From contig CAYGRZ010000003.1 in assembly GCA_964352425.1 (NCBI GenBank), positions 21,077-85,076 on the forward strand: DNA of 64,000 bases. The letters are read 5' to 3'. Shown piece by piece: positions 854 to 35,675 of the stretch. A program made the position numbers and the translations under genes. The notes under the pieces are model-generated. The model did no database searches and was not told the origin of the DNA. It saw only the letters and a list, made by a program, of their open reading frames with translations. Origin of the DNA: an uncultured Planctomycetia bacterium. Lineage in GTDB: Bacteria; Omnitrophota; Gorgyraeia; 2-01-FULL-45-10. Every line of letters starts with the position of its first letter. Within the stretch, counting starts at the first letter, position 1.

Positions 854-2335
854 TTATTTAATAGGCGTCTTCGTCTTATTAAAATATGTCATGCAAAACC
901 TTAAAAAATATAATGGATTATGCAATAGCTTAAAAATGATCTTATCCAGGAACTTTTTCGGGTTTCTGACCAAATACAGGAAATATAATTTTAACTTTTC
1001 CCTAAGAACCAGGCCCATAAGTGTTTTTCGGGGCAGGCCCTTGGTTTCGAAGCTCGGATAATCGGACTTTAACCTTGCATAGTCAAGCCCATCATCGATC
1101 AATTTTAGCGATTTACAGGTTTCCAAAAGCCTTGTTCCCGGCAACGGTGTGGCATAGAAAAAATTTGTGGTATCAAGCTGCAGATTTTCAGCGAATCTGA
1201 AGGTATTTTTTAACGACTTCCTGGTTTCTCCCGGAAGACCGACTACAAAAAATCCCGAGGTTTCTAGCCCCAACGTTTTCGATTTATCAATGATCGGTTT
1301 TATCTGAGAAAGTTCGATAGGTTTTTTTATAACGTTCTTTAGCATATATTCATCGCCGGACTCTATACCTATGCTTATTGCATAGCAGCCGCTCTTCTTC
1401 ATCAGATCAAGCATCTGGCCATCAAGAGTCTGCACAGCTACGCCATTCGGCACATTCCATAATATGTTAAACTCTTTTGCGATAATACCCGAAAAAATTC
1501 TCTTTGCCCTGTCTCCGTCTAAAGTCAAATTATCGTCTTCAAATAATATCTCCTTAACCCCGAATCGCTTCATAAGATACTCGATTTCCATTAAGACGTT
1601 TTCGGCTGATCTTTTTCTGTAATTTCTTCCCCAAACATTATGGATTGAACAAAAAATGCATTCAAACGGGCACCCGCGCGATGTTATAAGCGGCAGAAAA
1701 GGCACTTTTCTTGCAGGGCTCCCATGAGGGTTGTTGATCTTGAAATATTTTTCAAGAGGGAATATGTCCCAATATGGAAATTCTATGCCGTCAAGGTTTT
1801 CGATTGGGATCCTTTTCCTGGTTATTACGGCTGTTCCGTTTTTTCTGAAACCTATTCCATCAACCTTATCTAGATCTGATCTATTTTCTACAACATCTGC
1901 AAGCTCGACAAGCGTCCTCTCCCCCTCACCGATAACGACATAATCAGTATCATTATCAGCAAGGACCCTTTTTGGCTCAGCGGAAGGATGCGCGCCTCCC
2001 AAGACTGTTATAATGCCCCTGCTTATACTTTTAGCTGCACTGCAAACTTTATACACATTTTCAGTTTGCGCAGAAAAAAGACATGAAACCCCGACCATAT
2101 CCGGTTTCAGATCATAAATTTTACGTTTAATTTCTTCGAATGTTGACCCAAACCTGATAAAGTCTTCATCCACCGGCTCTTCCTGATAAAAGCCTTCAGC
2201 CAATGCATCCATCACATGAACATCATGCTTTTTTCTAAGCGCCGATGCTAGATATGCCAATCCTAAAGGCGGATGGCATTTTTTTGTTTCTGTTTTATAG
2301 ATAGTATATGGCGGCTGAATTAAAAGGATCTTCAA
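854..2335 (-). CDS. B12-binding domain / radical SAM (class B) enzyme
   Basis: 493 aa. N-terminal cobalamin-binding-like domain (MKILLIQPPY...VLGGAHPS) and a CxxxCxxC radical SAM motif (RGCPFECIFCS). Confidence 0.8.
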   Translation of the reverse strand: MKILLIQPPYTIYKTETKKCHPPLGLAYLASALRKKHDVHVMDALAEGFYQEEPVDEDFIRFGSTFEEIKRKIYDLKPDMVGVSCLFSAQTENVYKVCSAAKSISRGIITVLGGAHPSAEPKRVLADNDTDYVVIGEGERTLVELADVVENRSDLDKVDGIGFRKNGTAVITRKRIPIENLDGIEFPYWDIFPLEKYFKINNPHGSPARKVPFLPLITSRGCPFECIFCSIHNVWGRNYRKRSAENVLMEIEYLMKRFGVKEILFEDDNLTLDGDRAKRIFSGIIAKEFNILWNVPNGVAVQTLDGQMLDLMKKSGCYAISIGIESGDEYMLKNVIKKPIELSQIKPIIDKSKTLGLETSGFFVVGLPGETRKSLKNTFRFAENLQLDTTNFFYATPLPGTRLLETCKSLKLIDDGLDYARLKSDYPSFETKGLPRKTLMGLVLREKLKLYFLYLVRNPKKFLDKIIFKLLHNPLYFLRFCMTYFNKTKTPIK

Positions 2336-2337
2336 TT

Positions 2338-3129
2338 CTATTTCTTTCTAAGTTCTGCCACGACAGTAAATCCGCACCATGTAAATGGGAACGTTTTGCC
2401 CCAATACTTTGAAATCAGGTAAGAAAGGAAGCCTAATGCTTTTTGCACCACACCAGGCATCCTGACTATCAGGCTTCCCGGCAAATAATATGACCCTATC
2501 GACTGCATTATTTCAGCATCAAAATGTTTCAGATAATCAATGAACTCAAAAGATGAATAAATATACTGATGCGTTGGATCCCAAGCATTCCATTTATAAT
2601 CTCTAACAAATGCCTCGATAATTTTGCCTTCCAGGCCTGCAAATGATATTTTATTCGGAGTTGATATATAAAGCCTTGCCCCCTTCCTGGAAATTCTCAA
2701 TAATTCACCGATAGCTTGTGTATGTTTTTCTTTTGGAAGATGCTCTAAGACTTCAAAGGCTATTACTGTATCAAAATATGCATCTTTAAAAGGCAGCTTA
2801 TAAATATCGGAGCATAAGTAATGTATTTTCGCAGATAAGTCGTCATTTACCAATTTGGCGCCATTTAAGGAAAAGAGATCTTTATCGCAAAGAACTATTG
2901 TCGAGGATCTCTCCGCATAGGTCTTTTCCAATAAGCCTATATTGCTGCCGATATCGATAGTGGCACCAAGAGTCTTGTTCTTATTTAAAATATCACTGTA
3001 AAGTTTAAATCTATATTTGTCGAAAGGACTTTCATTGAACCTGGCCTTCATCTCTTCAACATAGCTTAGGAGATCCGCATTATTATGCGAATCGCGTATT
3101 CGCTCCTCATTTTGTTTTGAGCTATGCAT
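2338..3129 (-). CDS. Class I SAM-dependent methyltransferase
   Basis: 263 aa with the Rossmann motif I-like IDIGSNIGLL and acidic motif II VIAFEVLEHL. It sits 3 nt downstream of the radical SAM gene. Confidence 0.65.
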   Translation of the reverse strand: MHSSKQNEERIRDSHNNADLLSYVEEMKARFNESPFDKYRFKLYSDILNKNKTLGATIDIGSNIGLLEKTYAERSSTIVLCDKDLFSLNGAKLVNDDLSAKIHYLCSDIYKLPFKDAYFDTVIAFEVLEHLPKEKHTQAIGELLRISRKGARLYISTPNKISFAGLEGKIIEAFVRDYKWNAWDPTHQYIYSSFEFIDYLKHFDAEIMQSIGSYYLPGSLIVRMPGVVQKALGFLSYLISKYWGKTFPFTWCGFTVVAELRKK

Positions 3130-5544: not shown

Positions 5545-5546
5545 GT

Positions 5547-7897: not shown

Positions 7898-7918
7898 GAG
7901 ATGACCTCCCGGGTTATT

Positions 7919-9322: not shown

Positions 9323-9327
9323 TTTTG

Positions 9328-10698: not shown

Positions 10699-10834
10699 AA
10701 TTCCCCCGCTAAGGATGCCGCATCCCTTGAGCGTTTCATTGCAAAACGCGGATATGCCCCGTCTTCGTCATTTAAGATGTTCTAAAGATTATACTTCCCA
10801 GCAACCGTTTTGTCGATAGAATATGCCTATACAA

Positions 10835-12417: not shown

Positions 12418-12488
12418 AAAAGACCCCCCTTATTTTGTAAACCCTTTGCATTGCATCATGGCCCGCGAAAGGAAGAAGACCTGTTCTC

Positions 12489-21419: not shown

Positions 21420-21434
21420 GCCATTTCTCCTTTA

Positions 21435-22271
21435 CTATCCATTTTCACCATAGGCACACCAGGTATTGTTGTTACGTTTCTTTATTCGAAAATTCACGAG
21501 TCCAGATTCCGAAAACCATTTCTCAATGTCATCTTTTGTAAAAAAATAAATTATCGGGGTGGACAAAAAATCCAATATGACCGCCTGGCGATAGGTGAAT
21601 CCGTTGCGATACAAATACAGAAAATACTCGATCTTGTTTTTTGCGCCTGACAACCCAAAAATTTTAGTGCCCCAATAGCATATCCATACAAAGACGGACA
21701 ATAATATATTAACCATTAAAGCAATGTAATACCTTACCGTTGCGCCCTGTTTATAAGTGAGCTTCCTTAGGATATTTACCAGTTCCATCGTCCGACGGCT
21801 ATCTTCCTTTGCGTAAATCAGGATCTCTATTTTTCCTCCGGGCGCAAGATAGCGTGCCAGATTTAAAAATCCCATGCGCGGATCCGGGGTATGGTGCAGG
21901 ACCCCGAAGGCGGTAATTATGTCAAACTTCGCGTTAAAAGGCAGCCTATTTAAATCCGACTGCACTATGAATGCATTTGCATTGTCAGCGTTGTTTTTCC
22001 TGGCGGCGTGTACGCTTGGGCTGATATCCACGCCGATCGCAAGACTTGCATCCTGTTTTGCGACAAGATCAGTGACCCTTCCGGTGCCACATCCCGCATC
22101 AAGCACTACCTTTTTGGAAAAATCTTCTTTTTTAATAAACGGGCTTAGCTCATCGAACTCTTTTGAAAAATCAGCGTACAGCCGGTCCTTAAATTTATCG
22201 TTAATTAAGTTCCATTGAAATCCAAACCGTTCTTTGGTTTGATCTATCTTTTCTTTATTCTCTTCGGCCAC
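21435..22271 (-). CDS. Class I SAM-dependent methyltransferase
   Basis: 278 aa. Motif I VLDAGCGTGRVT and motif II ITAFGVLHH. Confidence 0.6.
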   Translation of the reverse strand: MAEENKEKIDQTKERFGFQWNLINDKFKDRLYADFSKEFDELSPFIKKEDFSKKVVLDAGCGTGRVTDLVAKQDASLAIGVDISPSVHAARKNNADNANAFIVQSDLNRLPFNAKFDIITAFGVLHHTPDPRMGFLNLARYLAPGGKIEILIYAKEDSRRTMELVNILRKLTYKQGATVRYYIALMVNILLSVFVWICYWGTKIFGLSGAKNKIEYFLYLYRNGFTYRQAVILDFLSTPIIYFFTKDDIEKWFSESGLVNFRIKKRNNNTWCAYGENG

Positions 22272-23247
22272 AGCTCTCCTTCAAAGTTATTTCCACCGCC
22301 CGTTTAAATTTCACCGTAGGTTGATATTTTAAAATCTTCCTGGCCTTCGCAAGGTCCGGAATTCTTCTGGCTATCTCTTTGTAATCTCCAAAAACATTCT
22401 TCATTGGCGTGTGTACTATTCTTGAACGTTTTGCCCTGCTTGTAATTTTTTTGGCGGCGCCTATAATAATTTCTGCCGACTTTTTCACGCTTACCTCTTC
22501 GTCGGATCCGATATTTATTATCTGGCCGACCGCTTTATCATTTTCTATTGCAAGGAGCGTGCCCAGTACAACATCTGCTACATGAGCCATCGAACGCGTC
22601 TGGATGCCGTCTCCATGCACAGGTATAGGTTCTCCCTTAAGAACTTTATCTATGAACAAAGGCACATGGCCACCGCTCGGGCCATAGTTCGACCTGGAGC
22701 CAAAACAACCGAAATAACGCAGCACCACTACCGGGAGCTTGTATTCCTGATGATACGCGAAGACCAGGTGCTCGCAATAGAGCTTCGATGCGGCATACGA
22801 CCAGCGCTTTATATACGAAGGTCCAAGAACGACATTGCCGTCTTCCCGGAACGGCAGGTCTCTCGATGCTCCGTAGACATCCGATGTGGAGGCAAATACG
22901 AACTTCGCCTTATGTTTCCTGGCAAGGTCGAGCATATTCACGGTGGATTCCACATTGTTCGTAAGAACGTCGAGGCTGGAACCCGTCTCGCCTATCTTTT
23001 TCGAAGCGGCCATGTGGACGACGATATCGAATTTTATGCCCTTAAGCTTATTACAAATCCGCCCTTTTCCGGATATATCGATCTTCTTGAATGTAAAATT
23101 CCTGTTCTTCAGTGCTATTTTTAAATTCGACATCCTGCCGGCAGAAAGATTGTCCACCCCAAAAACGCGATAGCCGTTTTCTAACAATGTATCCGCAAGA
23201 TGCGAGCCGATGAGTCCCGCAACGCCGGTGATAAGGGCCCTCTTCAT
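22255..23247 (-). CDS. NAD-dependent epimerase/dehydratase (SDR family)
   Basis: 330 aa. GxxGxxG Rossmann motif (ITGVAGLIGSHL) and a YxxxK catalytic pair (YAASK). Confidence 0.75.
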   Translation of the reverse strand: MKRALITGVAGLIGSHLADTLLENGYRVFGVDNLSAGRMSNLKIALKNRNFTFKKIDISGKGRICNKLKGIKFDIVVHMAASKKIGETGSSLDVLTNNVESTVNMLDLARKHKAKFVFASTSDVYGASRDLPFREDGNVVLGPSYIKRWSYAASKLYCEHLVFAYHQEYKLPVVVLRYFGCFGSRSNYGPSGGHVPLFIDKVLKGEPIPVHGDGIQTRSMAHVADVVLGTLLAIENDKAVGQIINIGSDEEVSVKKSAEIIIGAAKKITSRAKRSRIVHTPMKNVFGDYKEIARRIPDLAKARKILKYQPTVKFKRAVEITLKESCGRRE

Positions 23248-24338
23248 CTTTTTTTCCTCAATTGACCGACCGTTATTTCAAGTATCTTCCTGGCAGAAGA
23301 AAGATCGCTATAGGACCCTCTCTTATCGCGTCGGTTTTTTCTCGATGCAAAATGCGCGAGTGCCTTGGCGATTTTGCGTTTGTCGACACCGGCAAGGATG
23401 TTCCATCCGGATTCGACGGTCTCGACCCACTCGGTCTCTTCCCTTAAGGTTACGCAGGGTATCTTCAGAAAATACGCCTCTTTCTGCACCCCGCCCGAAT
23501 CTGTGAGTATCGCGGCGGCGTTCATCTCAAGCATCAGCATATCGACATACGGGACCGGCTCTATGCCAACGATATTGCCAGCCAGGCGTATCCCGTGCTT
23601 TGCGATGATATGCTTCGTCCTGGGGTGGACAGGAAATATGACCGGCTTAGCGAGCGCTCCGAACGCTTCAATAAGACGTTTCAGCCTTGCTATATCGTCG
23701 GTATTGTAGGACCTGTGGACAGTCGCAAGATAATACGCCCCCTTCACGAGCCTAAGGCGCCTCAGGACACCCGACCGCCTCTCGGCGATCCTCGAGTACC
23801 GGACAAGCATATCGAGCATGACATCCTCGACCCGGAACACCCCGTTCGTTATGCCTTCGGCCCGCAGATTTTCGATCGCCGTCTTTGTCGGGCAGATCAT
23901 GATATCCGACACGCTGTCCGTCATAATCCTGTTTATCTCCTCCGGCATAGAACGGTTAAAGCTCCTCAGGCCTGCCTCAATATGCACGAGCTTAGCGCCG
24001 GCCTTTTTCGCCGCGACGGCGCCGGCAAGCGTAGAGTTGGTATCGCCATAAACGACAACGGCATCCGGCCTCTCTTTTGCGAATATCACGCCGAGCCCTT
24101 TTATCATCTTCGCTATCTGCTGTGTGCCGGGCCCGGACCCGACACCCAGATTGTACGCAGGCTTGCGCATCTTCAGCTGTCTGAAAAAGACATCGGACAT
24201 GTTGCAATCATAGTGCTGTCCCGTATGGACGACGACGGTCCGTATACAGCCGATGTTTCTGGCCGCGTCGGTCACGAGCGCCATCTTGACGAACTGGGGA
24301 CGCGCCCCTACAACATGCAGTATCTTATAACGTTTCAT
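23244..24338 (-). CDS. wecB: UDP-N-acetylglucosamine 2-epimerase (non-hydrolysing; WecB/WbpI family)
   Basis: YKILHVVGARPQFVKMA...HTGQHYD, typical of this family. I placed the start at ATG 24336..24338 (MKRYKIL), which forms an ATGA overlap with the upstream stop. The track ORF extends to 24422. Confidence 0.8.
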   Translation of the reverse strand: MKRYKILHVVGARPQFVKMALVTDAARNIGCIRTVVVHTGQHYDCNMSDVFFRQLKMRKPAYNLGVGSGPGTQQIAKMIKGLGVIFAKERPDAVVVYGDTNSTLAGAVAAKKAGAKLVHIEAGLRSFNRSMPEEINRIMTDSVSDIMICPTKTAIENLRAEGITNGVFRVEDVMLDMLVRYSRIAERRSGVLRRLRLVKGAYYLATVHRSYNTDDIARLKRLIEAFGALAKPVIFPVHPRTKHIIAKHGIRLAGNIVGIEPVPYVDMLMLEMNAAAILTDSGGVQKEAYFLKIPCVTLREETEWVETVESGWNILAGVDKRKIAKALAHFASRKNRRDKRGSYSDLSSARKILEITVGQLRKKR

Positions 24339-25273
24339 CACAGAGGGAATGACCTTTTCTCCGTCTTCCCGAAGTGATCCAGCGCCTTCAACAGCTCTTT
24401 CTCCGGAAGGTTCTTGTACCAATCGATAGTGATTTTAAGGCCCTTATCGAAAGGAGTGAAATCATCGACCTTCAGGACATCCTTGAGCGCAGTGGTATCG
24501 GCGGCGATGTTCGACCTCTCCGGCTCGCCCGCCCTCATCGGAAGATGTTTCAGCTTGGATTTTGACTTCGTGATCTTGATGATCATCCCCGCAAGCTCGT
24601 TGACCGTTATCGGCAGACCAGTGCCGACGTCTATGACCTTGCCTATCTTGCCGCAGTTGCGCGTAGCGTTAATTGCGATCTTGGCGATATCGGTCACATA
24701 GATCATATCGACCGTCTGATTGCCGTCGCCGAACACCTCGAGGGGCTTATTGTACAAAGCCTGGGCGATGAAGAGCGGCACGGCTTTCCTCACGGGATAG
24801 AGATGCTGCCTCGGGCCGTACGCGTTAAACCACTTGAGGCACGCGATAGACATGCCGAAGTTCTTTATGAACATCATGCAGAACTGCTCTGCGGCGAATT
24901 TGGTTATCGAATACGTGTTCAGCCAATCATTCGGTTTTGTCGGATGGAATACCCTCTTGACGCCGGAAAGCTTCGCAGCCTTGAGCGCGTTAATGGCGCC
25001 ACCTATATTGACGTCGACGGCTCTCGAGTTCGAGAACATGAGCTCGTTCGTGCCGAGGACGCCGGCTATATCATACAGCTCGTCAACTCCCTGCATGGCC
25101 GATATAAGCGTCGCTATATACCGCGTATCGCCGTCAAAATATTCCACGTTCTCCGGAAGCTCGAAATCGGGTTTAGCGATATCATAGATAATAACCTTAT
25201 GCCCTTCCCGCGTAAGCTCCTCTACTACAAAACTTCCGATAAACCCGGAACCTCCCGTAACAAGACACTTCAT
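24338..25273 (-). CDS. NAD-dependent epimerase/dehydratase (SDR family)
   Basis: 311 aa. MKCLVTGGSGFIGSFV Rossmann motif and a YSITK catalytic motif. Confidence 0.75.
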   Translation of the reverse strand: MKCLVTGGSGFIGSFVVEELTREGHKVIIYDIAKPDFELPENVEYFDGDTRYIATLISAMQGVDELYDIAGVLGTNELMFSNSRAVDVNIGGAINALKAAKLSGVKRVFHPTKPNDWLNTYSITKFAAEQFCMMFIKNFGMSIACLKWFNAYGPRQHLYPVRKAVPLFIAQALYNKPLEVFGDGNQTVDMIYVTDIAKIAINATRNCGKIGKVIDVGTGLPITVNELAGMIIKITKSKSKLKHLPMRAGEPERSNIAADTTALKDVLKVDDFTPFDKGLKITIDWYKNLPEKELLKALDHFGKTEKRSFPL

Positions 25274-25331: not shown

Positions 25332-26723
25332 CTATTCCCCCACTACTATTTCCCGCTTTACGGTCTGGCGCTCGTTTAACGCCAGAAAGCGGTCCACCAC
25401 CTCTTTGTTAATATGCTTGTTCAATACCGTCGTCGCGCTCTGCGCGTAATAGTCCGTCCACAGGTCCTCGGGGAAGTCTATTCCCGCCCCTTTCATCCTG
25501 TCCCAGAGCTCCGAGCCTATATGCGGCGTAGCCACGCTCAGGCTCACATACGCCGGCTCGATCTCTTTGAGGAGATCATATGTCATCTCGACATCCTCCG
25601 GCTCTTCGACGGGCATCCCGAGAAGAATATAGATGGTCATCTCTATGCCGGCCTTCTCGATAAGCCGCACCGTTTCGCGGACGTCCTCTACGGTGATGCC
25701 TTTCTTCATGTATGCAAGGATCTTGTCGCTGCCGGATTCTACGCCGAGCTTTATGCGTTTGCATCCGGCTTCTTTCATGAGCTTCAGCATCTCCTCATCG
25801 AAAGATCCTACACGGGCTTCGCAGCTCCACGCCAGGTCCCACTTCTTGGCTATGATGCGCCTGCAAAGCTCTTTGCCGAACTTTTTGTTAATGCTGATAT
25901 TGTCGTCGCAGAAATAGTAGCGCTTGACGCCGTATTTATCGTGCCTGAAGGCCAGTTCTTCCATTATGTTGTCCACAGACCTGAAGCGGACCCTCTTATT
26001 CCATAGGCGCGGGCTAGAACAGAATATGCAATTCAGCGAACACCCCCTGCTCGAGGTTATCATGCCGAAATTGTTCTTGAGGTCCCTGACCTTTATAAGT
26101 TGATAATCCGGTTCCGGGAACGGCAGGCTATCCAGGTCCTTCATGAGCTCCCGCGGCTTATTGTGGCTGCATTTACCAGAGCTATCCTTGAACGACAGGC
26201 CATGTATGCTCTCGAGCGGATCGCCACGAACGAGTTCGAGCATCGTGTGCTCACCTTCCTGGCGCGCAACGTAGTCGACCCAATCCTTTGTGATCGTATC
26301 CTCATAGACCATAGTCGCATGCGGCCCGCCGACTATGACCTTGATATCCTTATTGACCTCACGGGCAAGCCGCGCTATATTCTCCGCGCACTTAAGCGTC
26401 GCGAAGAGGACTACGGCAATGCCGATCAGGTCCGGGTTATAATCAGCAATCTTTTTCTTTATATCAAGCCACAGCGGATGATCGATATCGTTTATGACCC
26501 TGCGGTAATTGTCATAGCCTTCAAATACTTCTTTCAGGCTCAGGTCCCTGTCCTTCTCCTCATAATCGGCGTTCAGGATCATCGCCTGGAACCCGTTCTT
26601 GTTCAGGTAACTGGCAATATACCCCAGGCCAAGCTGGATCCAGTTGTTCTTTCCGCCCATGAGCCTGTAGAACGGCGGCACGACCAGAAGTATCTTCTTG
26701 AACCGGGGGCTATTTTCCTTCAC
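25332..26723 (-). CDS. B12-binding domain / radical SAM (class B) enzyme
   Basis: 463 aa. B12-binding-like N-terminus (KVIVGGPHAT) and CxxxCxxC (SSRGCSLNCIFCSS). Confidence 0.8.
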   Translation of the reverse strand: MKENSPRFKKILLVVPPFYRLMGGKNNWIQLGLGYIASYLNKNGFQAMILNADYEEKDRDLSLKEVFEGYDNYRRVINDIDHPLWLDIKKKIADYNPDLIGIAVVLFATLKCAENIARLAREVNKDIKVIVGGPHATMVYEDTITKDWVDYVARQEGEHTMLELVRGDPLESIHGLSFKDSSGKCSHNKPRELMKDLDSLPFPEPDYQLIKVRDLKNNFGMITSSRGCSLNCIFCSSPRLWNKRVRFRSVDNIMEELAFRHDKYGVKRYYFCDDNISINKKFGKELCRRIIAKKWDLAWSCEARVGSFDEEMLKLMKEAGCKRIKLGVESGSDKILAYMKKGITVEDVRETVRLIEKAGIEMTIYILLGMPVEEPEDVEMTYDLLKEIEPAYVSLSVATPHIGSELWDRMKGAGIDFPEDLWTDYYAQSATTVLNKHINKEVVDRFLALNERQTVKREIVVGE

Positions 26724-26738
26724 AGATGATCCCCTGCA

Positions 26739-27452
26739 TTATTTCCTGCATACAGCGATGAGCATCTTCGAATAGATCCTGGGCCTGTCACAACCAAGCT
26801 CTACCAGATAAATAAGCTTTAAGATCAAAAACCACACACGAAGAGCAATGGCGCGTAGAAGCGAAAATATACCGAAATTTATCGGATATTTATTACCGGT
26901 TATCCTGACGTTCTTAAAACCGGCCATTGAAAGCACCTGCTCCAGGCTGTATTCGGTATATGCTATCTCATGAGTGAAATCTTTGTACCGTATATACATG
27001 CCCCCGAGCGTACTAAAATTCACCGTTCGCAGTAACAGGATCCCGCCCTCCTTCAGCGACAGCCTGATCGCCTTTACTATGCCGACCGTGTCCTTTTTCG
27101 GCAGATGTTCCAGGGTGTCATTAAGCACTATGAAATCAAATGTGCCGGCTTTCTGTGACAGGTACTCAACGACATCTCTGACCAGCTCGACATTCGCGAT
27201 ATTTTGCTTCCTGCAGAAATCGACCATCTCGGATGAAACGTCAACACCGGATACATTGCTGTATTTCTTCGTTCGAAGATATGTGATGAATTCTCCCATG
27301 CCGCATCCGATATCCAGTATCCTGGCACCGGTATCACGAGGCAAGTACGCAGCATATTCGCTCTCATAGAACTTATAGGCCACTGCCCTGTTCCTGGGGT
27401 CCGTAAAACGTGCCGTTGACAGATAATTCTCGAAATATTCTTCGCTCTTCAT
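26739..27452 (-). CDS. Class I SAM-dependent methyltransferase
   Basis: Motif I ILDIGCGMGEF and motif II FIVLNDTLEHL. I chose the start at ATG 27450..27452 (MKSEEYF). The track ORF extends to 27608 and would overlap the next gene by about 150 nt. Confidence 0.6.
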   Translation of the reverse strand: MKSEEYFENYLSTARFTDPRNRAVAYKFYESEYAAYLPRDTGARILDIGCGMGEFITYLRTKKYSNVSGVDVSSEMVDFCRKQNIANVELVRDVVEYLSQKAGTFDFIVLNDTLEHLPKKDTVGIVKAIRLSLKEGGILLLRTVNFSTLGGMYIRYKDFTHEIAYTEYSLEQVLSMAGFKNVRITGNKYPINFGIFSLLRAIALRVWFLILKLIYLVELGCDRPRIYSKMLIAVCRK

Positions 27453-27459: not shown

Positions 27460-28464
27460 TCACAATAATTTCTCTGCCAGCGCCTCCGCAGGCAAATGCG
27501 CATATTCCCATCCATGGAAGATCGGAGGACATACATGGTTGGCTTTGATAAATTCAGCGTTCGGGAATTCCCCTCCCAGGCCCATAAACTCATGACAAAG
27601 CTCTCCATACACCTTACCGGTCTCTATCTTAAGCTTTTTTTCAAAAGCTATATACTTGTAATAGCCGGATTCCATGCCTGCCGGGAACATGACCCTCCTG
27701 GGAAAGATCCTGTCGTATTTTTTTGCCAGGTCTCTTTTCCATTTTAATATCTCCGGCAATCTTTCGAACTGGACGATCCCCAGGGCGGCGGTAAATTCGC
27801 TCATCCTGAAGTTAAAGGCCTTGATCTTATAATCGAATTTTCCGTAATTCCTGAATTTCTTTACAAACTCGTACAACCCCTCGTCTTTTGTCACCACCAT
27901 CCCGCCCTCACCCGTCGTCATCGTCTTGGTCGCATAGAAAGAATAGCCCCCGCCCACACCGAATGAACCGGCAGAGCGTCCCATGAACGTGGCGCCGTGC
28001 GCATGTGCGCAGTCTTCCAGGAGGGTTATCTTGTGCGCGTCACAGATCTCTTTTATCTTTAATATGTCAAACGCTATATGGCCGCCTATATGGACGACCA
28101 TGACCGCTTTCGTATTCTTGGTGATCCTCTTCTCCAGGTCCCCGGCGCTCATGCAGAGATCTTCCCTATTGCAGTCGCAGAAGACCGGCGTACCCCCTGC
28201 CCATTGGACCGCAAGCGGAGTCGCCATAAAAGTGTTCGTCGGCACGATCACCTCTTTCCCCTGCACGCCGACATATTCCAGGAGAGCCAGGAGTGCTGCT
28301 CCGCCGTTCGTAACACCAAGCGCTTTCAAACCGACGAATTCGCCAAAGCGCTTCTCGAGCTCCTTGATCGCATCGCCTTCAGACCAAAAGCTTGACGCAA
28401 ATACCCTGTCGAGTAACTTATAGTAATTTTTCTTACTCCTGTCGTCAAAAGGTATGGTGAACAT
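27460..28464 (-). CDS. DegT/DnrJ/EryC1/StrS family PLP-dependent sugar aminotransferase
   Basis: 334 aa with a typical DegT-family core (VVHIGGHIAFD, NFRMSEFTAALG). Confidence 0.75.
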   Translation of the reverse strand: MFTIPFDDRSKKNYYKLLDRVFASSFWSEGDAIKELEKRFGEFVGLKALGVTNGGAALLALLEYVGVQGKEVIVPTNTFMATPLAVQWAGGTPVFCDCNREDLCMSAGDLEKRITKNTKAVMVVHIGGHIAFDILKIKEICDAHKITLLEDCAHAHGATFMGRSAGSFGVGGGYSFYATKTMTTGEGGMVVTKDEGLYEFVKKFRNYGKFDYKIKAFNFRMSEFTAALGIVQFERLPEILKWKRDLAKKYDRIFPRRVMFPAGMESGYYKYIAFEKKLKIETGKVYGELCHEFMGLGGEFPNAEFIKANHVCPPIFHGWEYAHLPAEALAEKLL

Positions 28465-28478: not shown

Positions 28479-29318
28479 TTACATCTTTGTTATGGTAACT
28501 ACCAGCTTGGAACCGAAATATTTTAAGACCCTATTATTTTTAAGCCCGTAAGAAAAAAACCGCAATCTGTCGCAGATATTCGCGCGGCTTCCCAGGATGG
28601 GCATATTAACAGGAAGCAGGACGTTGTACCCCTTCACCCTGAAATCAAGCCCTGTCTTCTTGAGCGCACGCAGCATCCTGAGCGGCGAGATGAGGCGAAA
28701 GTTGATCTTCTCGGGAGCAGCCTTAAAATGAGTCTTAAACCCCAGAGATCGCTTGCATTCTTTCAGCCACCGTATGGCCCTGAAACCGAGCTGGCTTCCC
28801 TCGAGGAATCGATACCAGTAATTTGTGATCTGGGAAATGTGCCACGGATTCATGAAGTCAAACACCACCATGCCGCCTTTTTTAGTAACACGCAGCATTT
28901 CACGGATGGCTTTCGGCACAGCGTCCACATAGGGCATAACGCCGATGGCAAATGTAATGTCGAACGACCCTTCCCTGAACGGGATATTATTGACGTCGGC
29001 CAAACTGAGCCGTACCGGCATACGCTCGCTGTGAAAACGTTTTTGGCAATCGCTCAGCAGATTACCGCAGAAATCGATGCCATATACTGCTTTGCCGCCC
29101 CGCGCAAGGCCGAGGGCAAAAAACTCGCCCGTTCCTATGCCGCACTCCAGCACCTTGGCGCCCCGCGCATCAAGGATCGTGTTCAAGGTATCCTGGAAGT
29201 GGTCCTTCTTATAATAGTCCGAGACGAGCCTCTGCGAGCTGGCAGTAAGCCATTGGTCGGAATATTCGATCTTATTATAGGCCTCGCGTTCCTTGCCTTT
29301 TAATACGACCTCTTTCAT
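28479..29318 (-). CDS. Class I SAM-dependent methyltransferase
   Basis: 279 aa. Motif I VLECGIGTGEFF and motif II ITFAIGVMPY. Confidence 0.6.
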   Translation of the reverse strand: MKEVVLKGKEREAYNKIEYSDQWLTASSQRLVSDYYKKDHFQDTLNTILDARGAKVLECGIGTGEFFALGLARGGKAVYGIDFCGNLLSDCQKRFHSERMPVRLSLADVNNIPFREGSFDITFAIGVMPYVDAVPKAIREMLRVTKKGGMVVFDFMNPWHISQITNYWYRFLEGSQLGFRAIRWLKECKRSLGFKTHFKAAPEKINFRLISPLRMLRALKKTGLDFRVKGYNVLLPVNMPILGSRANICDRLRFFSYGLKNNRVLKYFGSKLVVTITKM

Positions 29319-30457
29319 TGCGCTTTTCCTCCGGCTCCCGCAAGCAGCCGATACGTGTTCTCAAGCCTTGAGAAGTTCTTTGAGAAATCCGCATCCGATT
29401 CTATCTTTTTAATATTGTTCCCGGACATCCGCACGCGGAGATCGTCGTCTTTCAGCAATCTGTTGATGCCTTTCGATATGGAAACGGGATCGGACTTCTT
29501 CACCACGATGCCGTTCACGCCGTCTTTTACCCATTCCATATTCCCCGGTATATCGGTTACCACTGCCGGAAGGCCGCACGCCATCGCCTCGAGCAGTGAT
29601 GAGCTTGAGCCATCCATCAAAGACGTCGAAACATATATATCGGACGCGTTAATGTATTTGACGACTTCACGCTGCGGCACATAGCCTGTCCAATGGATAA
29701 AACCATCCAAAGCAAGATCGGACGCGAGGTCCTTCAAGTCGTTCTCAATAGGCCCATATCCCAGCATCAGCACCCGCGCCTCCGGGTTCGCTTCTTTCAC
29801 TGCCGGAAGCGCTTTTATAAAATCTTCTATTCCGTATGCCGGCCTGAATATTCGCATCATCAGCAATACTTTTCTACCCGTAAACCCCAATTTTTCTTTG
29901 AGCGCCGGATCATTATTGCTCTTACGAAAGACCTGAAGGTCGACATCCCACGGCATGACCACGACCTTTCCCTCGGGGTACTTAAAATCATCGGCCAGTA
30001 TCCGCTTTTCATACTCGCAGTCACACGTGATCATATCAGCGCGCGATATCGCATATCCGGCAATAATCCTGTTCCTCACGGAGCTCTTCGCGTAATACAT
30101 AATATCCGACCCCCATGGCATAAGAAGATAGGGGTGAAACCCCGAGAGCGCCGCCACGAGGCCCGAAGTCAATATCCATCCCGCATGGAGCACATCGGGC
30201 TTTTCGGCCCTGATGATCCGCTTGATCTCCATAATTCGCCTGAAAATGTTTACCGCGGTATTATCGGCAAGTCCGGGGCTGTGAACAATCTTCAGTCCTT
30301 TGATATTTCTTACGTCATAATGCCTTGATTCCATCCCCGCCGCGTCAAGATCTTTCCTGTGCGTGAGCAGTGTGACATTATACCCTCGTGCGATGTCCAT
30401 GCTCAGGAATCTGTAGTCATGAGGCCCGAGCATCTCCGAAAGATAAAGGATCTTCAT
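29315..30457 (-). CDS. Glycosyltransferase family 4 (GT-B)
   Basis: 380 aa with the GT4 C-terminal signature EAMACGLPAVVTDIPG. ATGA overlap with the upstream gene. Confidence 0.75.
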   Translation of the reverse strand: MKILYLSEMLGPHDYRFLSMDIARGYNVTLLTHRKDLDAAGMESRHYDVRNIKGLKIVHSPGLADNTAVNIFRRIMEIKRIIRAEKPDVLHAGWILTSGLVAALSGFHPYLLMPWGSDIMYYAKSSVRNRIIAGYAISRADMITCDCEYEKRILADDFKYPEGKVVVMPWDVDLQVFRKSNNDPALKEKLGFTGRKVLLMMRIFRPAYGIEDFIKALPAVKEANPEARVLMLGYGPIENDLKDLASDLALDGFIHWTGYVPQREVVKYINASDIYVSTSLMDGSSSSLLEAMACGLPAVVTDIPGNMEWVKDGVNGIVVKKSDPVSISKGINRLLKDDDLRVRMSGNNIKKIESDADFSKNFSRLENTYRLLAGAGGKAQ

Positions 30458-31864
30458 CTATGTGAAAACACTCCTGATGCGCGCGATCTCGGCTTTTGTA
30501 ATAACGCCTGCCATAAGCAGGGCACCGGCATAGATCGCCGCGCCAATGACAATCAGAGCCAATGGATTCAACCATCCGCAGAGAGGCAACAGGATCAACC
30601 CCATCAGAAAGGCAGCGGCACATGGTTTCACCGCCAGCTTAATAAGAGGCAGCCGCACAATATCCCTCGCGAAAAAGATCGACAGCGCGAGTATCACGAC
30701 CTCCGCAAGCACCAGCGCGATCGACGGCGCAAGATAACCGATAAACGGTATGGCGATAACGTTAAAAACGACATTCAGTAAAGTGGCATACATGAGAATA
30801 CGCAGATATACAGATTGCCTGTCGAAGGCCACAAGCGCATAGCTGAGAATATAATCCACGAGATTCAGCATTACGGCCCATGCCATTATCTGGAGCGGCG
30901 CGCCTGCCTTACTATACGAGACACCATACACAAGAGTAATGAGCCTGGGCCCGAGCAAAAGCCCGCCGACCGCTATGGGCAGCCCTATAAGCACCGCGGC
31001 CTTGATGCAATAGTTTATGAACTCCTGTAATTGTTCACGAGATTCATGATAAAGCCTGGATATGACCGGAAACGTAACCGCCACCAGCGTATCGCTTAAC
31101 GCATAGCAAAATAATATCAACTTAAAAGCGGCGCCGTAAATGCCGACGACCTGTTCATTCTTGGCAAAGCCGAGCGCCACGGTACCGAAATTGAGATACG
31201 CGATAAAAAGGCCCGATGACACAAAAAGCTGCAGCGATGTCGGCAAAAGCGAGAACCATCTTTTAATATCAAAATGCAGTTTCACCTGTCCGAATTTTCT
31301 TGAAAAATTGACATAATAGAATATGCTGCTGATAAAATCCGCCAGGATCGTTATCGCCGCGACTTTCAATATGTCCTCGGGCTTCCTTACGAACATAATA
31401 ATGAGCCCCGCGTATAACACAGCGTTTATTATCTTCCCGTACGCATTATACTTCATACGCTCGATACCCCTGAAGACCCATTCAACGGACAGCGCATACG
31501 GGAAAAGGGTAAATCCGAATGCGATGAGCAGATATCTGGTATGCGGCATCTTGCGCAATGTGCATGCAATGACCAGGAGGGCTAAAAAGGAGATCGCGGA
31601 AGCGGTAAGCCTTATGGAAACGATCGTCTCAACAATATCCTTAACATCTTTTTTTCGCGCTATCTCCCTCACGCCCAACTCTCCTAACCCCAGGTTTGTC
31701 GCCAATAAGAAATACGACAATAGGGCAAGAGAAAAGCTGATGGAGCCGAAGCCGGAGACCCCCAGCATCCTGGCGAGATAAATGACAGCGATAAAATGGC
31801 ATACGCGCGCTACGATCTCGCCTGTAAACAGGGCTGCAAAATTAGTGACTATTCTCTTTATCAT
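30458..31864 (-). CDS. Wzx-type flippase / polysaccharide biosynthesis protein (MOP superfamily)
   Basis: Multi-TM, Wzx-like N-terminus (MIKRIVTNFAALFTGEIVARV). I chose the start at ATG 31862..31864. The track ORF extends to 31957 into the neighbouring gene. Confidence 0.65.
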   Translation of the reverse strand: MIKRIVTNFAALFTGEIVARVCHFIAVIYLARMLGVSGFGSISFSLALLSYFLLATNLGLGELGVREIARKKDVKDIVETIVSIRLTASAISFLALLVIACTLRKMPHTRYLLIAFGFTLFPYALSVEWVFRGIERMKYNAYGKIINAVLYAGLIIMFVRKPEDILKVAAITILADFISSIFYYVNFSRKFGQVKLHFDIKRWFSLLPTSLQLFVSSGLFIAYLNFGTVALGFAKNEQVVGIYGAAFKLILFCYALSDTLVAVTFPVISRLYHESREQLQEFINYCIKAAVLIGLPIAVGGLLLGPRLITLVYGVSYSKAGAPLQIMAWAVMLNLVDYILSYALVAFDRQSVYLRILMYATLLNVVFNVIAIPFIGYLAPSIALVLAEVVILALSIFFARDIVRLPLIKLAVKPCAAAFLMGLILLPLCGWLNPLALIVIGAAIYAGALLMAGVITKAEIARIRSVFT

Positions 31865-31871
31865 AGTACTC

Positions 31872-33592: not shown

Positions 33593-33623
33593 CCTTATTA
33601 TTTGCCTTCCTGCAAGAAAAGCC

Positions 33624-35665: not shown

Positions 35666-35675
35666 TAAACGGATC

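What the first reader, a model, noticed from the sequence alone, without database searches (positions are those of the whole stretch)
25332..27452. Second B12-radical SAM + methyltransferase pair, adjacent to a DegT aminotransferase
It has the same architecture as 854..3129: a class B rSAM (CSLNCIFC motif) followed after 16 nt by a class I methyltransferase. This pair sits immediately upstream of a DegT sugar aminotransferase, another methyltransferase and a GT4. Duplicated rSAM-MT modules with different neighbours suggest two distinct radical tailoring steps on amino sugars. The two rSAMs are clearly different sequences (paralogs, not a recent duplicate).
Basis: partly seen in the sequence, partly recalled or inferred. 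Interest (0 to 1): 0.7.

Follow-up and report, generated by a model that had tools for sequence, protein, structure and literature searches.

The report
Radical SAM amino-sugar tailoring cassette
Two intact genes, a vitamin-B12-type radical SAM enzyme and a small methyltransferase, sit in a huge cell-surface sugar cluster of an uncultured Omnitrophota-like bacterium; the radical enzyme's conserved partners are the neighbouring aminotransferase and dehydrogenase rather than the methyltransferase, and together they probably make a modified amino sugar whose chemistry is untested.

Summary
25332-26723(-) encodes an intact 463-aa radical SAM protein with a B12-type domain (CSLNCIFC). 26739-27452(-) encodes a 237-aa class I methyltransferase (MT), 15 nt upstream. 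Because both genes are on the minus strand, the MT precedes the rSAM, and the pair lies downstream of DegT, not upstream.

The "duplicated rSAM-MT module" reading fails. The rSAMs share 27-32% identity, and the two partner MTs share only the fold.

In 50 loci carrying orthologs, a DegT aminotransferase touches the rSAM in 36 and a short SDR lies within 1.4 kb in 34. In 60 loci of other B12-rSAMs the counts are 2 and 1 (p about 1e-15). A class I MT touches the rSAM in 1 of the 50.

The MT belongs to a narrow Omnitrophota clade. It occupies a variable slot that can hold an MT, a GDSL-like gene, both, or nothing.

All sequence motifs for cobalamin binding are present. No curated family cut-off is reached.

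Best reading: a conserved DegT-rSAM-SDR(-GT4) cassette that tailors an amino sugar, most likely by cobalamin-dependent C-methylation as in gentamicin GenS2/GenN/GenD1. The MT would be an optional extra methylation. The chemistry is inferred, not shown. It is an uncharacterised member of a known enzyme class and of moderate interest.

The parts
25332..26723 (-). Class B (cobalamin-type) radical SAM enzyme, 463 aa; the core of the finding
   Evidence: Pfam PF04055 103 bits and PF02310 66.4 bits. AF2 model with pLDDT 93 shows an N-terminal Rossmann domain followed by a TIM barrel. Foldseek best matches are MgmA, TsrM, AprD4, OxsB, CysS and TokK. No NCBIfam cut-off is reached; the best is HpnJ at 196.7 bits against a cut-off of 577.6.
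26019..26042 (-). CxxxCxxC [4Fe-4S] motif CSLNCIFC (C228, C232, C235)
   Evidence: Read directly from the sequence. Invariant in 45 homologs.
26406..26423 (-). Downstream cobalamin-binding motif, G101-I-A-V-V-L106, on the beta3-alpha3 loop; family consensus is G-x-[S/T]-x-L
   Evidence: Alignments A1 and A2. Secondary structure. Motif definition from PMC9204698.
26325..26330 (-). Gly-Gly motif (G132-G133) at the end of beta4 of the cobalamin domain
   Evidence: Invariant in the family. beta4 spans residues 128-132 in the model. Aligns with the GGPH of TokK. Motif definition.
26250..26255 (-). Gly-Glu motif (G157-E158) at the start of alpha5 of the cobalamin domain
   Evidence: E156 and E158 are invariant and G157 is conserved in at least 90%. 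The helix spans 158-166. Aligns with the GEGE of TokK and MgmA. Motif definition.
26739..27452 (-). Class I SAM-dependent methyltransferase, 237 aa; an accessory gene specific to a narrow Omnitrophota clade, sitting in the variable slot between DegT and the rSAM
   Evidence: Pfam Methyltransf_23/25/11. Only about 17 orthologs at 55-66% identity were found; the named or traced ones are from Omnitrophota-type contigs. Contexts are shown. The fold is generic; the nearest named enzymes are phosphoethanolamine N-methyltransferases.
27460..28464 (-). DegT/DnrJ/EryC1-family PLP aminotransferase, 334 aa, with catalytic Lys180 at 27925-27927; a conserved partner of the rSAM
   Evidence: Pfam 258.8 bits. 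SFYATK aligns with SFFGNK of GDP-perosamine synthase 3BN1. Adjacent to the rSAM in 36 of 50 ortholog loci against 2 of 60 controls, Fisher p 3e-15.
24338..25273 (-). Short extended SDR, 311 aa, with GGSGFIG, Asp31 and Y121-xxx-K125; a conserved partner of the rSAM
   Evidence: Pfam Epimerase 117 bits. Within 1.4 kb of the rSAM in 34 of 50 ortholog loci against 1 of 60 controls, p 5e-15. No T-D-E dehydratase motif, and D31 is conserved. PDB neighbours are GalE-type epimerases, Pal and UXS. It is 85-91% identical in L002-L004.
29315..30457 (-). GT4 glycosyltransferase that travels with the cassette
   Evidence: Pfam. GT4 genes 33-42% identical to this one flank the cassette in many ortholog loci, for example L009, L012, L098, L103, L114, L137 and L164.
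28479..29318 (-). Second class I methyltransferase (MT2), between GT4 and DegT; also specific to the Omnitrophota clade
   Evidence: Pfam. Present in L002, L004, L169, L172 and L173; absent in L003.
22255..24422 (-). WecB-type UDP-GlcNAc 2-epimerase (23244-24422) and an ArnA-C/UXS-like SDR (22255-23247); syntenic with the cassette only in the Omnitrophota clade
   Evidence: TIGR00236 scores 276 bits, above its cut-off of 210; PRK11908 scores 137.6 bits, below its cut-off. Synteny in L002-L004, L086 and L173. The same genes are present in L170, which lacks the cassette.

Best explanation
The rSAM at 25332-26723 belongs to an uncharacterised subfamily of cobalamin-type (class B) radical SAM enzymes. 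Its conserved genomic partners are a DegT-family PLP aminotransferase and a short NAD-type SDR, usually with a GT4 glycosyltransferase. Together they form a 3-4 gene cassette that appears inside cell-surface glycan clusters of Omnitrophota, Chloroflexota, Planctomycetota, Nitrospinales and archaea.

Proposed mechanism. Every chemical step below is inferred; only the gene content, its conservation and the sequence motifs are shown.
1. The SDR oxidises a secondary alcohol of a nucleotide- or lipid-linked hexose to a ketone. Alternatively a 4,6-dehydratase elsewhere supplies a 4-keto sugar.
2. DegT transaminates the ketone to an amine.
3. The rSAM reductively cleaves SAM at its [4Fe-4S] cluster. 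The 5'-deoxyadenosyl radical abstracts H from an unactivated sugar carbon, and methyl-cobalamin delivers a methyl group, giving a C-methyl-branched amino sugar.
4. GT4 installs the sugar in the glycan.

The class I MT at 26739-27452 is not an obligate partner. It is an accessory gene of one Omnitrophota clade, in a variable slot between DegT and the rSAM. It most plausibly adds an N- or O-methyl group to the same sugar. This parallels gentamicin A2 to X2, where GenD2 (oxidoreductase), GenS2 (aminotransferase), GenN (N-methyltransferase) and GenD1 (cobalamin rSAM C-methyltransferase) act in turn.

Sub-confidences: cassette and context claim about 0.85; cobalamin binding about 0.75; C-methylation specifically about 0.5.
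For: Genes and domains.

Cassette conservation:
- DegT adjacent in 36 of 50 ortholog loci against 2 of 60 loci of other B12-rSAMs, p 3e-15.
- SDR within 1.4 kb in 34 of 50 against 1 of 60, p 5e-15.
- Both gene orders occur: DegT > rSAM > SDR, and rSAM > DegT > SDR > GT4.
- Hosts include Methanoperedens, Thermoplasmatota, Chloroflexi, Omnitrophota, Nitrospinales and Planctomycetia.

Modularity: an otherwise syntenic Omnitrophota cluster (L170) lacks just DegT-rSAM-SDR.

Nucleotide-sugar context: in L150 the cassette sits between an NTP-transferase and a bona fide GDP-mannose 4,6-dehydratase.

Partner enzymes: DegT keeps its catalytic Lys. The SDR keeps S/T-Y-K and Asp31, pointing to NAD, and has no dehydratase T-D-E motif.

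Cobalamin motifs, as defined in PMC9204698, are present and conserved:
- G-x-[S/T]-x-L on the beta3-alpha3 loop
- GG on beta4
- GE at the start of alpha5
- a long loop without His in place of the 'His loop'

The N-domain alone finds OxsB, TokK and corrinoid proteins, but not AprD4. HMM similarity that extends into the B12 domain is to HpnJ, BchE, PhpK, Sden_1168 and MgmA.

Precedent for the four-enzyme logic: PMC4340712.

MT as accessory.
Against: - No biochemical datum exists for any member of this subfamily.
- No curated family cut-off is reached.
- The best PDB sequence hit and the highest TM-score are to AprD4, a non-methylating diol dehydratase.
- The best HMM hit, HpnJ, is itself a proposed non-methylase.
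- In the window's own protein the Ser/Thr of the downstream cobalamin motif is Ala.
- The role of the SDR is ambiguous. In L150 a separate Gmd already supplies the keto sugar.
- The cassette contains no N-acyltransferase, which is unusual for glycan amino sugars.
- In L172 the MT stays immediately 5' of the rSAM although DegT has moved downstream. Some MT-rSAM coupling within that clade therefore cannot be excluded.
- GenD1, GenK and MoeK5 could not be compared directly.
Confidence: 0.5

Rival explanations
1. The cassette is the same, but the rSAM is not a methylase. It would perform a radical dehydration, deamination, epimerisation or ring contraction on the amino sugar, in the manner of AprD4 (diol dehydratase), DesII (deaminase) or HpnJ (ring contraction). 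The SDR would then reduce the resulting ketone, or DegT would transaminate it. The outcome would be a deoxy-amino or rearranged sugar.
For: - AprD4 is the best PDB sequence hit (83.6 bits) and has the highest TM-score (0.72).
- HpnJ, a proposed ring-contracting enzyme that acts on a glucosamine moiety, is the best NCBIfam hit (PMC9204698).
- AprD4 works with a partner reductase, AprD3 (PMC5461906). This gives the conserved SDR a clear role.
- In L150 a separate Gmd provides the 4-keto sugar, so the SDR is not needed as an oxidase there.
- The DegT + rSAM pairing recalls DesI/DesII (own knowledge).
Against: - AprD4 aligns only with the rSAM core (residues 216-431). It is not found with the N-domain alone, whereas cobalamin-binding proteins are.
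- The GG, GE and G-x-S/T-x-L cobalamin motifs are conserved. AprD4-type or DesII-type chemistry would have no obvious need for them.
- AprD3 is NADPH-dependent, whereas the cassette SDR has the conserved Asp31 typical of NAD binders.
- The AprD4 model scores 86 bits against a cut-off of 500. The DesI model scores 154.7 against 650 for the DegT.
Confidence: 0.3
2. The MT and the rSAM form an obligate two-enzyme module, the same kind of module as 854-3129, present twice in the cluster with different neighbours.
For: - Both pairs have the order MT then rSAM on the minus strand, with short spacers of 15 nt and 2 nt.
- In four Omnitrophota loci (window, L004, L172, L173) the MT is immediately 5' of the rSAM. 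In L172 it stays there although DegT has moved.
- Homologs of the first rSAM are often fused to a class I MT domain.
Against: - The two MTs share only the fold: 31% over 86 residues, E 1.6e-4. The rSAMs are 28% identical.
- An MT is adjacent in 1 of 50 ortholog loci, which is background level (3 of 60 controls). None of 10 otherwise unannotated neighbouring ORFs scanned with Pfam is an MT.
- None of the top 120 homologs is an MT fusion.
- The MT is absent or replaced in L002, L003 and L086, and is separated from the rSAM position by a GDSL-like gene in L169.
- A 43% identical MT homolog occurs in a cluster without any rSAM (L170).
- Even for the first pair, the fused MT domain is only 23% identical to MT 2338-3129, and contexts vary.
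Confidence: 0.08
3. The rSAM acts on something other than a sugar, such as a lipid, peptide or cofactor. Its position in a glycan cluster would then be incidental.
For: The nearest curated families act on hopanoids, chlorophyll precursors, phosphinates, RiPPs and MCR. Class B rSAMs are functionally very diverse (PMC9204698).
Against: Linkage to DegT, SDR and GT4 is highly specific and holds across phyla and in both gene orders. The cassette is embedded between Wzx, glycosyltransferases and nucleotide-sugar enzymes in every locus examined.
Confidence: 0.05

Closest known systems
Gentamicin A2 to X2 enzymes: GenD2 (oxidoreductase), GenS2 (DegT-type aminotransferase), GenN (class I N-methyltransferase), GenD1 (cobalamin-dependent rSAM C-methyltransferase) (PMC4340712)
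   Same: The same four enzyme types are encoded side by side: an oxidoreductase, a DegT-family aminotransferase, a class I MT and a B12-rSAM. The logic would be the same: alcohol to ketone to amine, then N-methylation and radical C-methylation on an amino sugar.
   Different: GenD2 is not an extended SDR (own knowledge). The gentamicin substrate is a pseudotrisaccharide antibiotic intermediate, whereas this is a cell-surface glycan cluster with Wzx, Wzy and glycosyltransferases. Sequence relatedness to GenD1 was not tested. Here the MT is dispensable across the family.
MgmA / QCMT, the methyl-coenzyme M reductase glutamine C-methyltransferase (PDB 9CCB; TIGR04014)
   Same: It is the best Foldseek E-value (1.6e-23; TM 0.66/0.73). 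The phmmer alignment runs from the B12 domain (GGP...GEGE) through the rSAM core. It is a cobalamin-dependent sp3 C-methylase.
   Different: Identity is 20%. The TIGR04014 score is 122 bits against a cut-off of 360. The substrate is a protein side chain, and the genomic context is unrelated.
AprD4 / AprD3, radical SAM diol dehydratase and its NADPH-dependent reductase for C3' deoxygenation of an aminoglycoside sugar (PDB 6FD2; PMC5461906)
   Same: It is the best PDB sequence hit and has the highest TM-score. It acts on an amino sugar and works with a partner reductase, as the rSAM + SDR here might.
   Different: Only the rSAM core aligns. The N-domain similarity goes to cobalamin binders, not to AprD4. 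NF033070 scores 86 bits against 500. The partner SDR here looks NAD-type rather than NADPH-type.
HpnJ (TIGR03471), the hopanoid-associated B12-rSAM proposed to contract the glucosamine ring of BHT-glucosamine. In the published sequence-similarity network it groups with Fom3 and the sugar C-methylase MoeK5 (PMC9204698)
   Same: It is the highest-scoring curated family (196.7 bits, residues 109-415). Its substrate is an amino-sugar moiety.
   Different: The score is far below the cut-off of 577.6. No hopanoid genes are nearby. HpnJ has no DegT or SDR partnership (own knowledge).
DesI / DesII (own knowledge): a DegT-type 4-aminotransferase plus a radical SAM deaminase in desosamine biosynthesis
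   Same: A DegT aminotransferase is directly coupled to a radical SAM enzyme acting on a nucleotide sugar.
   Different: DesII has no B12 domain. The DegT here scores 154.7 bits against the 650 cut-off of the DesI model. No DesII-type model appears among the 25 best of the 32 families the rSAM matched.

Membership tests
Radical SAM superfamily | CxxxCxxC cluster motif and a PF04055 core above the gathering score | tested here: met
   C228/C232/C235 in CSLNCIFC, invariant in 45 homologs. PF04055 scores 103 bits against 29.5. A GGE-like GVESGS is present at residues 327-332.
Cobalamin-dependent (class B) radical SAM enzymes | N-terminal Rossmann-type B12-binding domain (PF02310) | tested here: met
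   PF02310 scores 66.4 bits against 32.1. The AF2 model has five parallel strands at residues 10-15, 46-51, 99-103, 128-132 and 151-153. The N-domain alone retrieves OxsB, TokK and corrinoid-binding proteins.
Cobalamin-dependent (class B) radical SAM enzymes | Gly-Gly motif on beta4 and Gly-Glu motif at the start of alpha5 (PMC9204698) | tested here: met
   G132-G133 lie at the end of beta4. G157-E158 lie at the start of helix 158-166. All are invariant or nearly invariant in the family.
Cobalamin-dependent (class B) radical SAM enzymes | Downstream cobalamin-binding motif G-x-S/T-x-(L/N/R/Y) on the beta3-alpha3 loop, and a long 'His loop' without His | tested here: met
   The family consensus is G-I-[S/T]-x-L (for example GISVL, GITML). 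The window protein has G101-I-A-V-V-L, with Ser/Thr replaced by Ala. The beta1-alpha1 loop is 15 residues (PPFYRLMGGKNNWIQ) with no His.
Cobalamin-dependent (class B) radical SAM enzymes | Actual binding of, and dependence on, cobalamin | not testable with these tools
   Requires purified protein, followed by UV-vis spectroscopy, cofactor extraction and an activity assay.
Cobalamin-rSAM sugar C-methyltransferases (GenD1, GenK, MoeK5 type) | Sequence or phylogenetic grouping with characterised members | not tested
   Sequences and models of GenD1, GenK and MoeK5 were not available in the tools. The only curated C-methylase models score far below their cut-offs: KedN5 71.8 against 700, RiPP C-MT 110 against 282, MgmA 122 against 360.
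Cobalamin-rSAM sugar C-methyltransferases (GenD1, GenK, MoeK5 type) | Methyl transfer to an unactivated sugar carbon, giving SAH plus 5'-deoxyadenosine and a +14 Da product | not testable with these tools
   Biochemical assay needed.
HpnJ (TIGR03471) | Score at or above the curated cut-off of 577.6 bits, with a hopanoid gene context | tested here: not met
   196.7 bits. No hopanoid genes were seen in the window; the scanned neighbours are glycan-cluster enzymes.
BchE (TIGR02026) | Score at or above the curated cut-off of 481 bits | tested here: not met
   168.7 bits. The 'anaerobic Mg-protoporphyrin cyclase' labels that JGI gives to homologs are therefore over-annotations.
AprD4 family diol dehydratases (NF033070) | Score at or above the cut-off of 500 bits over the full length | tested here: not met
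   86 bits, covering residues 220-426 only. The PDB alignment to 6FD2 also covers only 216-431.
Fused or obligately paired MT + B12-rSAM module (as seen for homologs of 854-2335) | The MT domain is fused to, or consistently adjacent to, the rSAM across the family | tested here: not met
   0 of 120 top homologs carry an MT domain. An MT is adjacent in 1 of 50 ortholog loci against 3 of 60 controls. The slot is variable within the closest clade.
DegT/DnrJ/EryC1 sugar aminotransferases (for the partner gene 27460-28464) | PF01041 above its cut-off, with the PLP-binding Lys present (not the His of ColD-type dehydratases) | tested here: met
   258.8 bits against 19.8. Lys180 in SFYATK aligns with the catalytic Lys of perosamine synthase. 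No specific equivalog is reached: LegC 180 against 420, PseC 168 against 423, DesI 155 against 650.
NDP-hexose 4,6-dehydratases (for the partner SDR 24338-25273) | Catalytic T-D-E motif upstream of YxxxK | tested here: not met
   The window has H-P-T...Y121-S-I-T-K125 and the family consensus is A-S-S...Y..SK, with no Asp/Glu pair. LegB scores 118 against 475 and RmlB 105 against 365.

The most novel reading that the evidence does not exclude
The DegT-rSAM-SDR(-GT4) cassette would be a widespread, so far unrecognised cobalamin-dependent radical step in the biosynthesis of cell-envelope glycans of anaerobic bacteria and archaea. Hosts include Omnitrophota, Chloroflexota, Planctomycetota, Nitrospinales, Methanoperedens and Thermoplasmatota. 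The product would be a sugar type not yet described in polysaccharides. Candidates are an amino sugar C-methylated at an unactivated carbon, or a ring-contracted or carbocyclic amino sugar made in the manner proposed for HpnJ. It would be the first class B radical SAM enzyme assigned to primary surface-glycan assembly rather than to antibiotic, cofactor or lipid tailoring.
Probability: 0.35. Interest if true: 0.7.

Novelty: new member of a known kind. Interest (0 to 1): 0.42.

Why it matters
- Class B radical SAM enzymes are among the largest pools of unassigned enzymology. Sugar-modifying examples are known almost only from aminoglycoside and moenomycin pathways.
- This work defines a testable unit of three conserved genes plus a glycosyltransferase, found across several phyla of uncultured anaerobes. 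That turns "a B12-rSAM of unknown function in a glycan cluster" into a concrete experiment with a short list of candidate substrates.
- If the product is a new branched or rearranged amino sugar, the known chemical repertoire of microbial surface glycans would grow. Surface-glycan synthesis in these organisms would also become dependent on cobalamin supply.
- For genome annotation: adjacency of an MT and an rSAM is not in itself a functional module, and the 'BchE' and 'YgiQ' labels on these proteins are wrong.

Tried and rejected
- **Pseudogene or frameshift:** rejected. The ORFs are intact. The identical rSAM protein and 72-85% orthologs exist in syntenic loci. The shortened DegT (334 aa) keeps the same length (333-338 aa) in five relatives.
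- **Duplicated module:** rejected.
- **DegT as a ColD-type dehydratase:** rejected, because the Lys is retained.
- **Cassette SDR as a 4,6-dehydratase:** rejected, because there is no T-D-E motif.
- **L169 as a fifth case of MT directly followed by rSAM:** wrong. The partial ORF after the MT is 67% identical to the GDSL-like gene of L002.
- **Hidden divergent MTs next to orthologs:** a sensitive HMM/phmmer search and a Pfam scan of 10 of the 12 unannotated neighbouring ORFs found none.
- **MT substrate class:** PDB sequence and fold searches gave only generic class I folds, with phosphoethanolamine N-methyltransferases as the nearest named enzymes. This is not diagnostic.
- **Non-coding features:** no Rfam family or tRNA in the window, and promoter and terminator counts match shuffled controls. 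Antisense ORFs have no family match.
- **Literature:** searches for cobalamin radical SAM enzymes in O-antigen or capsule synthesis found nothing relevant.
- **Organism or protein names:** the exact-sequence cluster look-up returned none.


Full report
**1. What is there**

All long ORFs from about 850 to 57,000 lie on the minus strand and form one very large cell-surface glycan cluster. The cluster encodes:
- two Wzx-type flippases and a Wzy-like protein
- GT2, GT4 and PMT_2 glycosyltransferases
- six class I methyltransferases
- several SDRs, two DegT aminotransferases and a WecB epimerase
- RmlA-, RmlB- and RmlD-like enzymes
- a carbamoyltransferase, an MBOAT/GDSL pair and three B12-type radical SAM genes

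Around the finding, the order of transcription is:

| Gene | Coordinates |
|---|---|
| Wzx | 30458-31957 |
| GT4 | 29315-30457 |
| MT2 | 28479-29318 |
| DegT | 27460-28464 |
| MT | 26739-27452 |
| (15-nt spacer) | 26724-26738 |
| B12-rSAM | 25332-26723 |
| short SDR | 24338-25273 |
| WecB | 23244-24422 |
| ArnA-C/UXS-like SDR | 22255-23247 |
| MT | 21435-22271 |
| carbamoyltransferase | 19716-21419 |

- the rSAM scores 103 bits for Radical_SAM and 66.4 bits for B12-binding, and carries CSLNCIFC at residues 228-235
- the MT hits Methyltransf_23/25/11 at E 1e-16 to 5e-21

The spacer is 15 nt, not 16. Antisense ORFs have no family match. There are no RNA families, no tRNAs and no excess of promoter or terminator signals.

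**2. Not pseudogenes, and not a duplicated module**

The identical rSAM protein is on record in public assemblies. Orthologs of 72-85% identity lie in syntenic clusters.

The three rSAMs of the window are 27-32% identical to one another. MT 26739-27452 and MT 2338-3129, the partner in the "first pair", align over only 86 residues at 31% identity (E 1.6e-4), which is nothing beyond the shared fold.

**3. Which neighbours are conserved**

I collected ortholog loci by exact-protein look-ups and by scans of genome and metagenome collections. Their ORFs were annotated by BLASTP against the window's own proteins.

Fifty loci carry a full-length ortholog (at least 34% identity) with at least 1.3 kb on both sides. 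Sixty loci of other B12-rSAMs (36% identity or less), fetched by the same genome scan, served as controls. Results:

| Neighbour of the rSAM | Ortholog loci (n=50) | Control loci (n=60) | Fisher p |
|---|---|---|---|
| DegT-family gene within 150 bp | 36 | 2 | 3e-15 |
| SDR within 1.4 kb | 34 | 1 | 5e-15 |
| Class I MT within 150 bp | 1 | 3 | 0.62 |

A more sensitive MT search (an HMM of the MT family plus phmmer with all six window MTs) did not change the count. A Pfam scan of 10 of the 12 otherwise unannotated adjacent ORFs found glycosyltransferases, a SPASM rSAM, an asparagine synthase, classical SDRs and a VTT protein, but no MT.

Both gene orders occur. The Omnitrophota clade has GT4 > (MT2) > DegT > (slot) > rSAM > SDR. 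Elsewhere the order is (GT4 >) rSAM > DegT > SDR > GT4. The hosts named in the genome records are Methanoperedens, Thermoplasmatota, Dehalococcoidaceae/Chloroflexi, Omnitrophota, Nitrospinales and Planctomycetia. A GT4 that is 33-42% identical to the window's GT4 commonly accompanies the trio.

L170 is an Omnitrophota cluster with otherwise the same synteny (Wzx, GT4, MTs, WecB, SDR2, MT, GT2, PMT_2), but it lacks exactly DegT-rSAM-SDR. The trio therefore behaves as an insertable module.

**4. Status of the methyltransferase**

MT 26739-27452 has only about 17 close orthologs (55-66% identity), from Omnitrophota-type contigs.
- In the window, L004 and L173 it lies between DegT and the rSAM.
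- In L172 the order is MT2 > MT > rSAM > DegT > SDR, so it stays 5' of the rSAM although DegT has moved.
- In L169 it is followed by a membrane-anchored GDSL-like gene instead.
- In L002 only that GDSL-like gene is present.
- In L003 and L086 the slot is empty.
- No rSAM ortholog of 55% identity or less has an adjacent MT.
- None of the top 120 rSAM homologs carries an MT domain.

The MT is thus a clade-specific accessory decoration gene, not the defining partner.

The first rSAM (854-2335) behaves differently. About 20 of its 50 best homologs are roughly 768-aa fusions with a C-terminal class I MT domain. That domain is only 23% identical to MT 2338-3129, and the contexts of unfused homologs vary.

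**5. What the rSAM is**

No NCBIfam cut-off is reached. The best scores are HpnJ 196.7 (cut-off 577.6), BchE 168.7 (481), PhpK 161.8 (600), ApyD 156.7 (750), Sden_1168 137.1 (575), MgmA-type 122 (360) and AprD4 86 (500, core only).

The AF2 model is confident (pLDDT 93.1). It shows a five-stranded Rossmann domain, a TIM-barrel core and a C-terminal helical part. Foldseek places it among MgmA, TsrM, AprD4, OxsB, CysS and TokK, with TM-scores of 0.62-0.72 and 14-20% identity.

The sequence criteria for cobalamin binding in class B enzymes are set out in PMC9204698. All are met and conserved in the family:
- Downstream motif G-x-S/T-x-L on the beta3-alpha3 loop. The family has GISVL or GITML. The window has G101-I-A-V-V-L.
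- GG at the end of beta4 (G132-G133).
- GE at the start of alpha5 (G157-E158).
- A 15-residue beta1-alpha1 loop without His.

The N-terminal 215 residues alone retrieve OxsB, TokK and corrinoid-binding proteins, but not AprD4. AprD4 aligns only over the rSAM core. I therefore treat cobalamin binding as likely. The hydrophobic residue on the lower face of the cofactor resembles the solvent-excluding arrangement of TokK more than the Asn/water arrangement of OxsB. This is only a weak hint towards methyl-cobalamin chemistry.

**6. The partners**

DegT, 334 aa. Its C-terminal part is shorter than the roughly 377 aa of most cassette DegTs, but the length is conserved at 333-338 aa in the clade. It keeps the PLP lysine: SFYATK aligns with SFFGNK of GDP-perosamine synthase, its best PDB match. 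It is therefore an aminotransferase, not a ColD-type dehydratase. It reaches no equivalog cut-off.

Cassette SDR, unusually short at 282-311 aa. It keeps GxxGxxG, an Asp at the end of beta2 (D31, conserved in at least 90%), and S/T...YxxxK. It lacks the T-D-E motif of 4,6-dehydratases. Its PDB neighbours are GalE-type epimerases, Pal and UXS. I infer an NAD-dependent oxidoreductase or epimerase.

In L150, from the 35% identity group, the cassette lies between an NTP-transferase and a bona fide GDP-mannose 4,6-dehydratase (448 bits). This places the chemistry on nucleotide sugars. It also shows that the short SDR is not always needed to make the keto group.

**7. Mechanism**

Best-supported model, with all chemical steps inferred:
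1. The SDR, or an external 4,6-dehydratase, provides a keto sugar.
2. DegT makes the amine.
3. The rSAM generates a 5'-deoxyadenosyl radical and abstracts H from an unactivated sugar carbon. Methyl-cobalamin then delivers the methyl group.
4. GT4 transfers the sugar.
5. MT and MT2 add optional heteroatom methyl groups.

The gene set matches the four enzyme types that convert gentamicin A2 to X2: GenD2, GenS2, GenN and GenD1 (PMC4340712).

The main rival keeps the cassette but makes the rSAM a non-methylase, acting like AprD4 (dehydration), DesII (deamination) or HpnJ (ring contraction), with the SDR as ketoreductase.
- For the rival: AprD4 is the best PDB hit, HpnJ is the best HMM hit, and AprD4 has a reductase partner (PMC5461906).
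- Against the rival: the cobalamin motifs are conserved, the AprD4 similarity is restricted to the core, and the SDR appears NAD-type whereas AprD3 uses NADPH.

**8. Novelty**

The enzyme class and the type of pathway logic are known. This subfamily has no characterised member and no curated model. Its public labels ('BchE cyclase', 'YgiQ') are wrong. I found no paper in the searchable library linking cobalamin radical SAM enzymes to O-antigen or capsule synthesis.

I classify it as a new, uncharacterised member of a known kind. What was added here is the definition of its conserved cassette. Interest is moderate.

**9. Limits**
- Locus annotation relied on simple ORF calling and on BLASTP or HMM probes drawn from the window.
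- Many metagenome contigs are short.
- The sampled loci are not phylogenetically independent.
- Regiochemistry, the nucleotide carrier, and the order of the steps cannot be derived from sequence.

Noticed in passing
window 38879-41647(-); intein at 39371-40834: The UDP-glucose/GDP-mannose dehydrogenase-family gene is interrupted by a 488-aa intein carrying a LAGLIDADG homing endonuclease. The intein sits exactly at the catalytic-Cys motif: GVGGH | C...THN | CIPVD.
   Followed up: partly
window 854-2335(-) and 2338-3129(-): About 20 of the 50 best homologs of the first B12-rSAM are roughly 768-aa fusions with a C-terminal class I MT domain. The best curated hit is the Sden_1168 'P-methyltransferase' family (296 bits, below its cut-off). 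The fused MT is only 23% identical to MT 2338-3129, and the contexts of unfused homologs vary (L166, L167).
   Followed up: partly
window 7919-9496(-): A third B12-rSAM (525 aa) lies between a GT2 and a Wzy-like gene, with no MT next to it. Its ORF overlaps the Wzy ORF (9328-10698) by 169 nt, so one of the start codons is probably called too far upstream.
   Followed up: no
window 1-14000 compared with the rest: GC content is 38-46% in the first 14 kb and 42-61% elsewhere. There are also two Wzx flippases (3131-4438 and 30458-31957). Together these suggest two or more glycan loci joined in tandem, one possibly acquired horizontally.
   Followed up: no
window 31872-36689(-): A WbpB/WbpD/WbpE-like set lies here: GFO/IDH/MocA oxidoreductase (35676-36689), hexapeptide acetyltransferase (32999-33592) and DegT2 (31872-33002). 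A GNAT-like ORF and a 341-aa ORF with no family match lie among them. The same trio recurs beside the rSAM cassette in distant loci (L009, L012, L128, L131).
   Followed up: partly
L002 7730-8806; L169 6699-7331: A membrane-anchored, weakly GDSL/SGNH-like 358-aa gene occupies the slot between DegT and the rSAM in some Omnitrophota relatives. It appears alone in L002 and after the MT in L169. The two copies are 67% identical.
   Followed up: partly
L170 (GCA_043805735.1), 1-12717: This Omnitrophota glycan cluster is syntenic with the window on both sides but lacks DegT-rSAM-SDR. It has two tandem MTs, one of them 43% identical to MT 26739-27452. It would be a natural minus-cassette comparator.
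   Followed up: partly
L086 1205-2583: A 72-84% identical rSAM ortholog is split by an in-frame stop into ORFs 1205-2275 and 2278-2583. This is either a sequencing error or a decaying copy.
   Followed up: no
window 19716-22271(-): A carbamoyltransferase (NodU/CmcH type, 567 aa) and the adjacent MT are present in the window. In the close relatives L002 and L004 they are replaced by a 225-aa weakly GNAT-like ORF. This is another variable decoration slot.
   Followed up: partly
window 26739-26870(-), MT residues about 195-219: The MT model has a long hydrophobic C-terminal helix (FSLLRAIALRVWFLILKLIYLVELG). It may anchor the enzyme to the membrane, which would hint at action on a lipid-linked glycan.
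   Followed up: no
window 46352-56078(-): Beyond the glycan genes lie an LptD/OstA-like protein (weak hits only), two GGDEF diguanylate cyclases (one with a GAF domain), a MalK-type ABC ATPase and an asparagine synthase-like amidotransferase.
   Followed up: no
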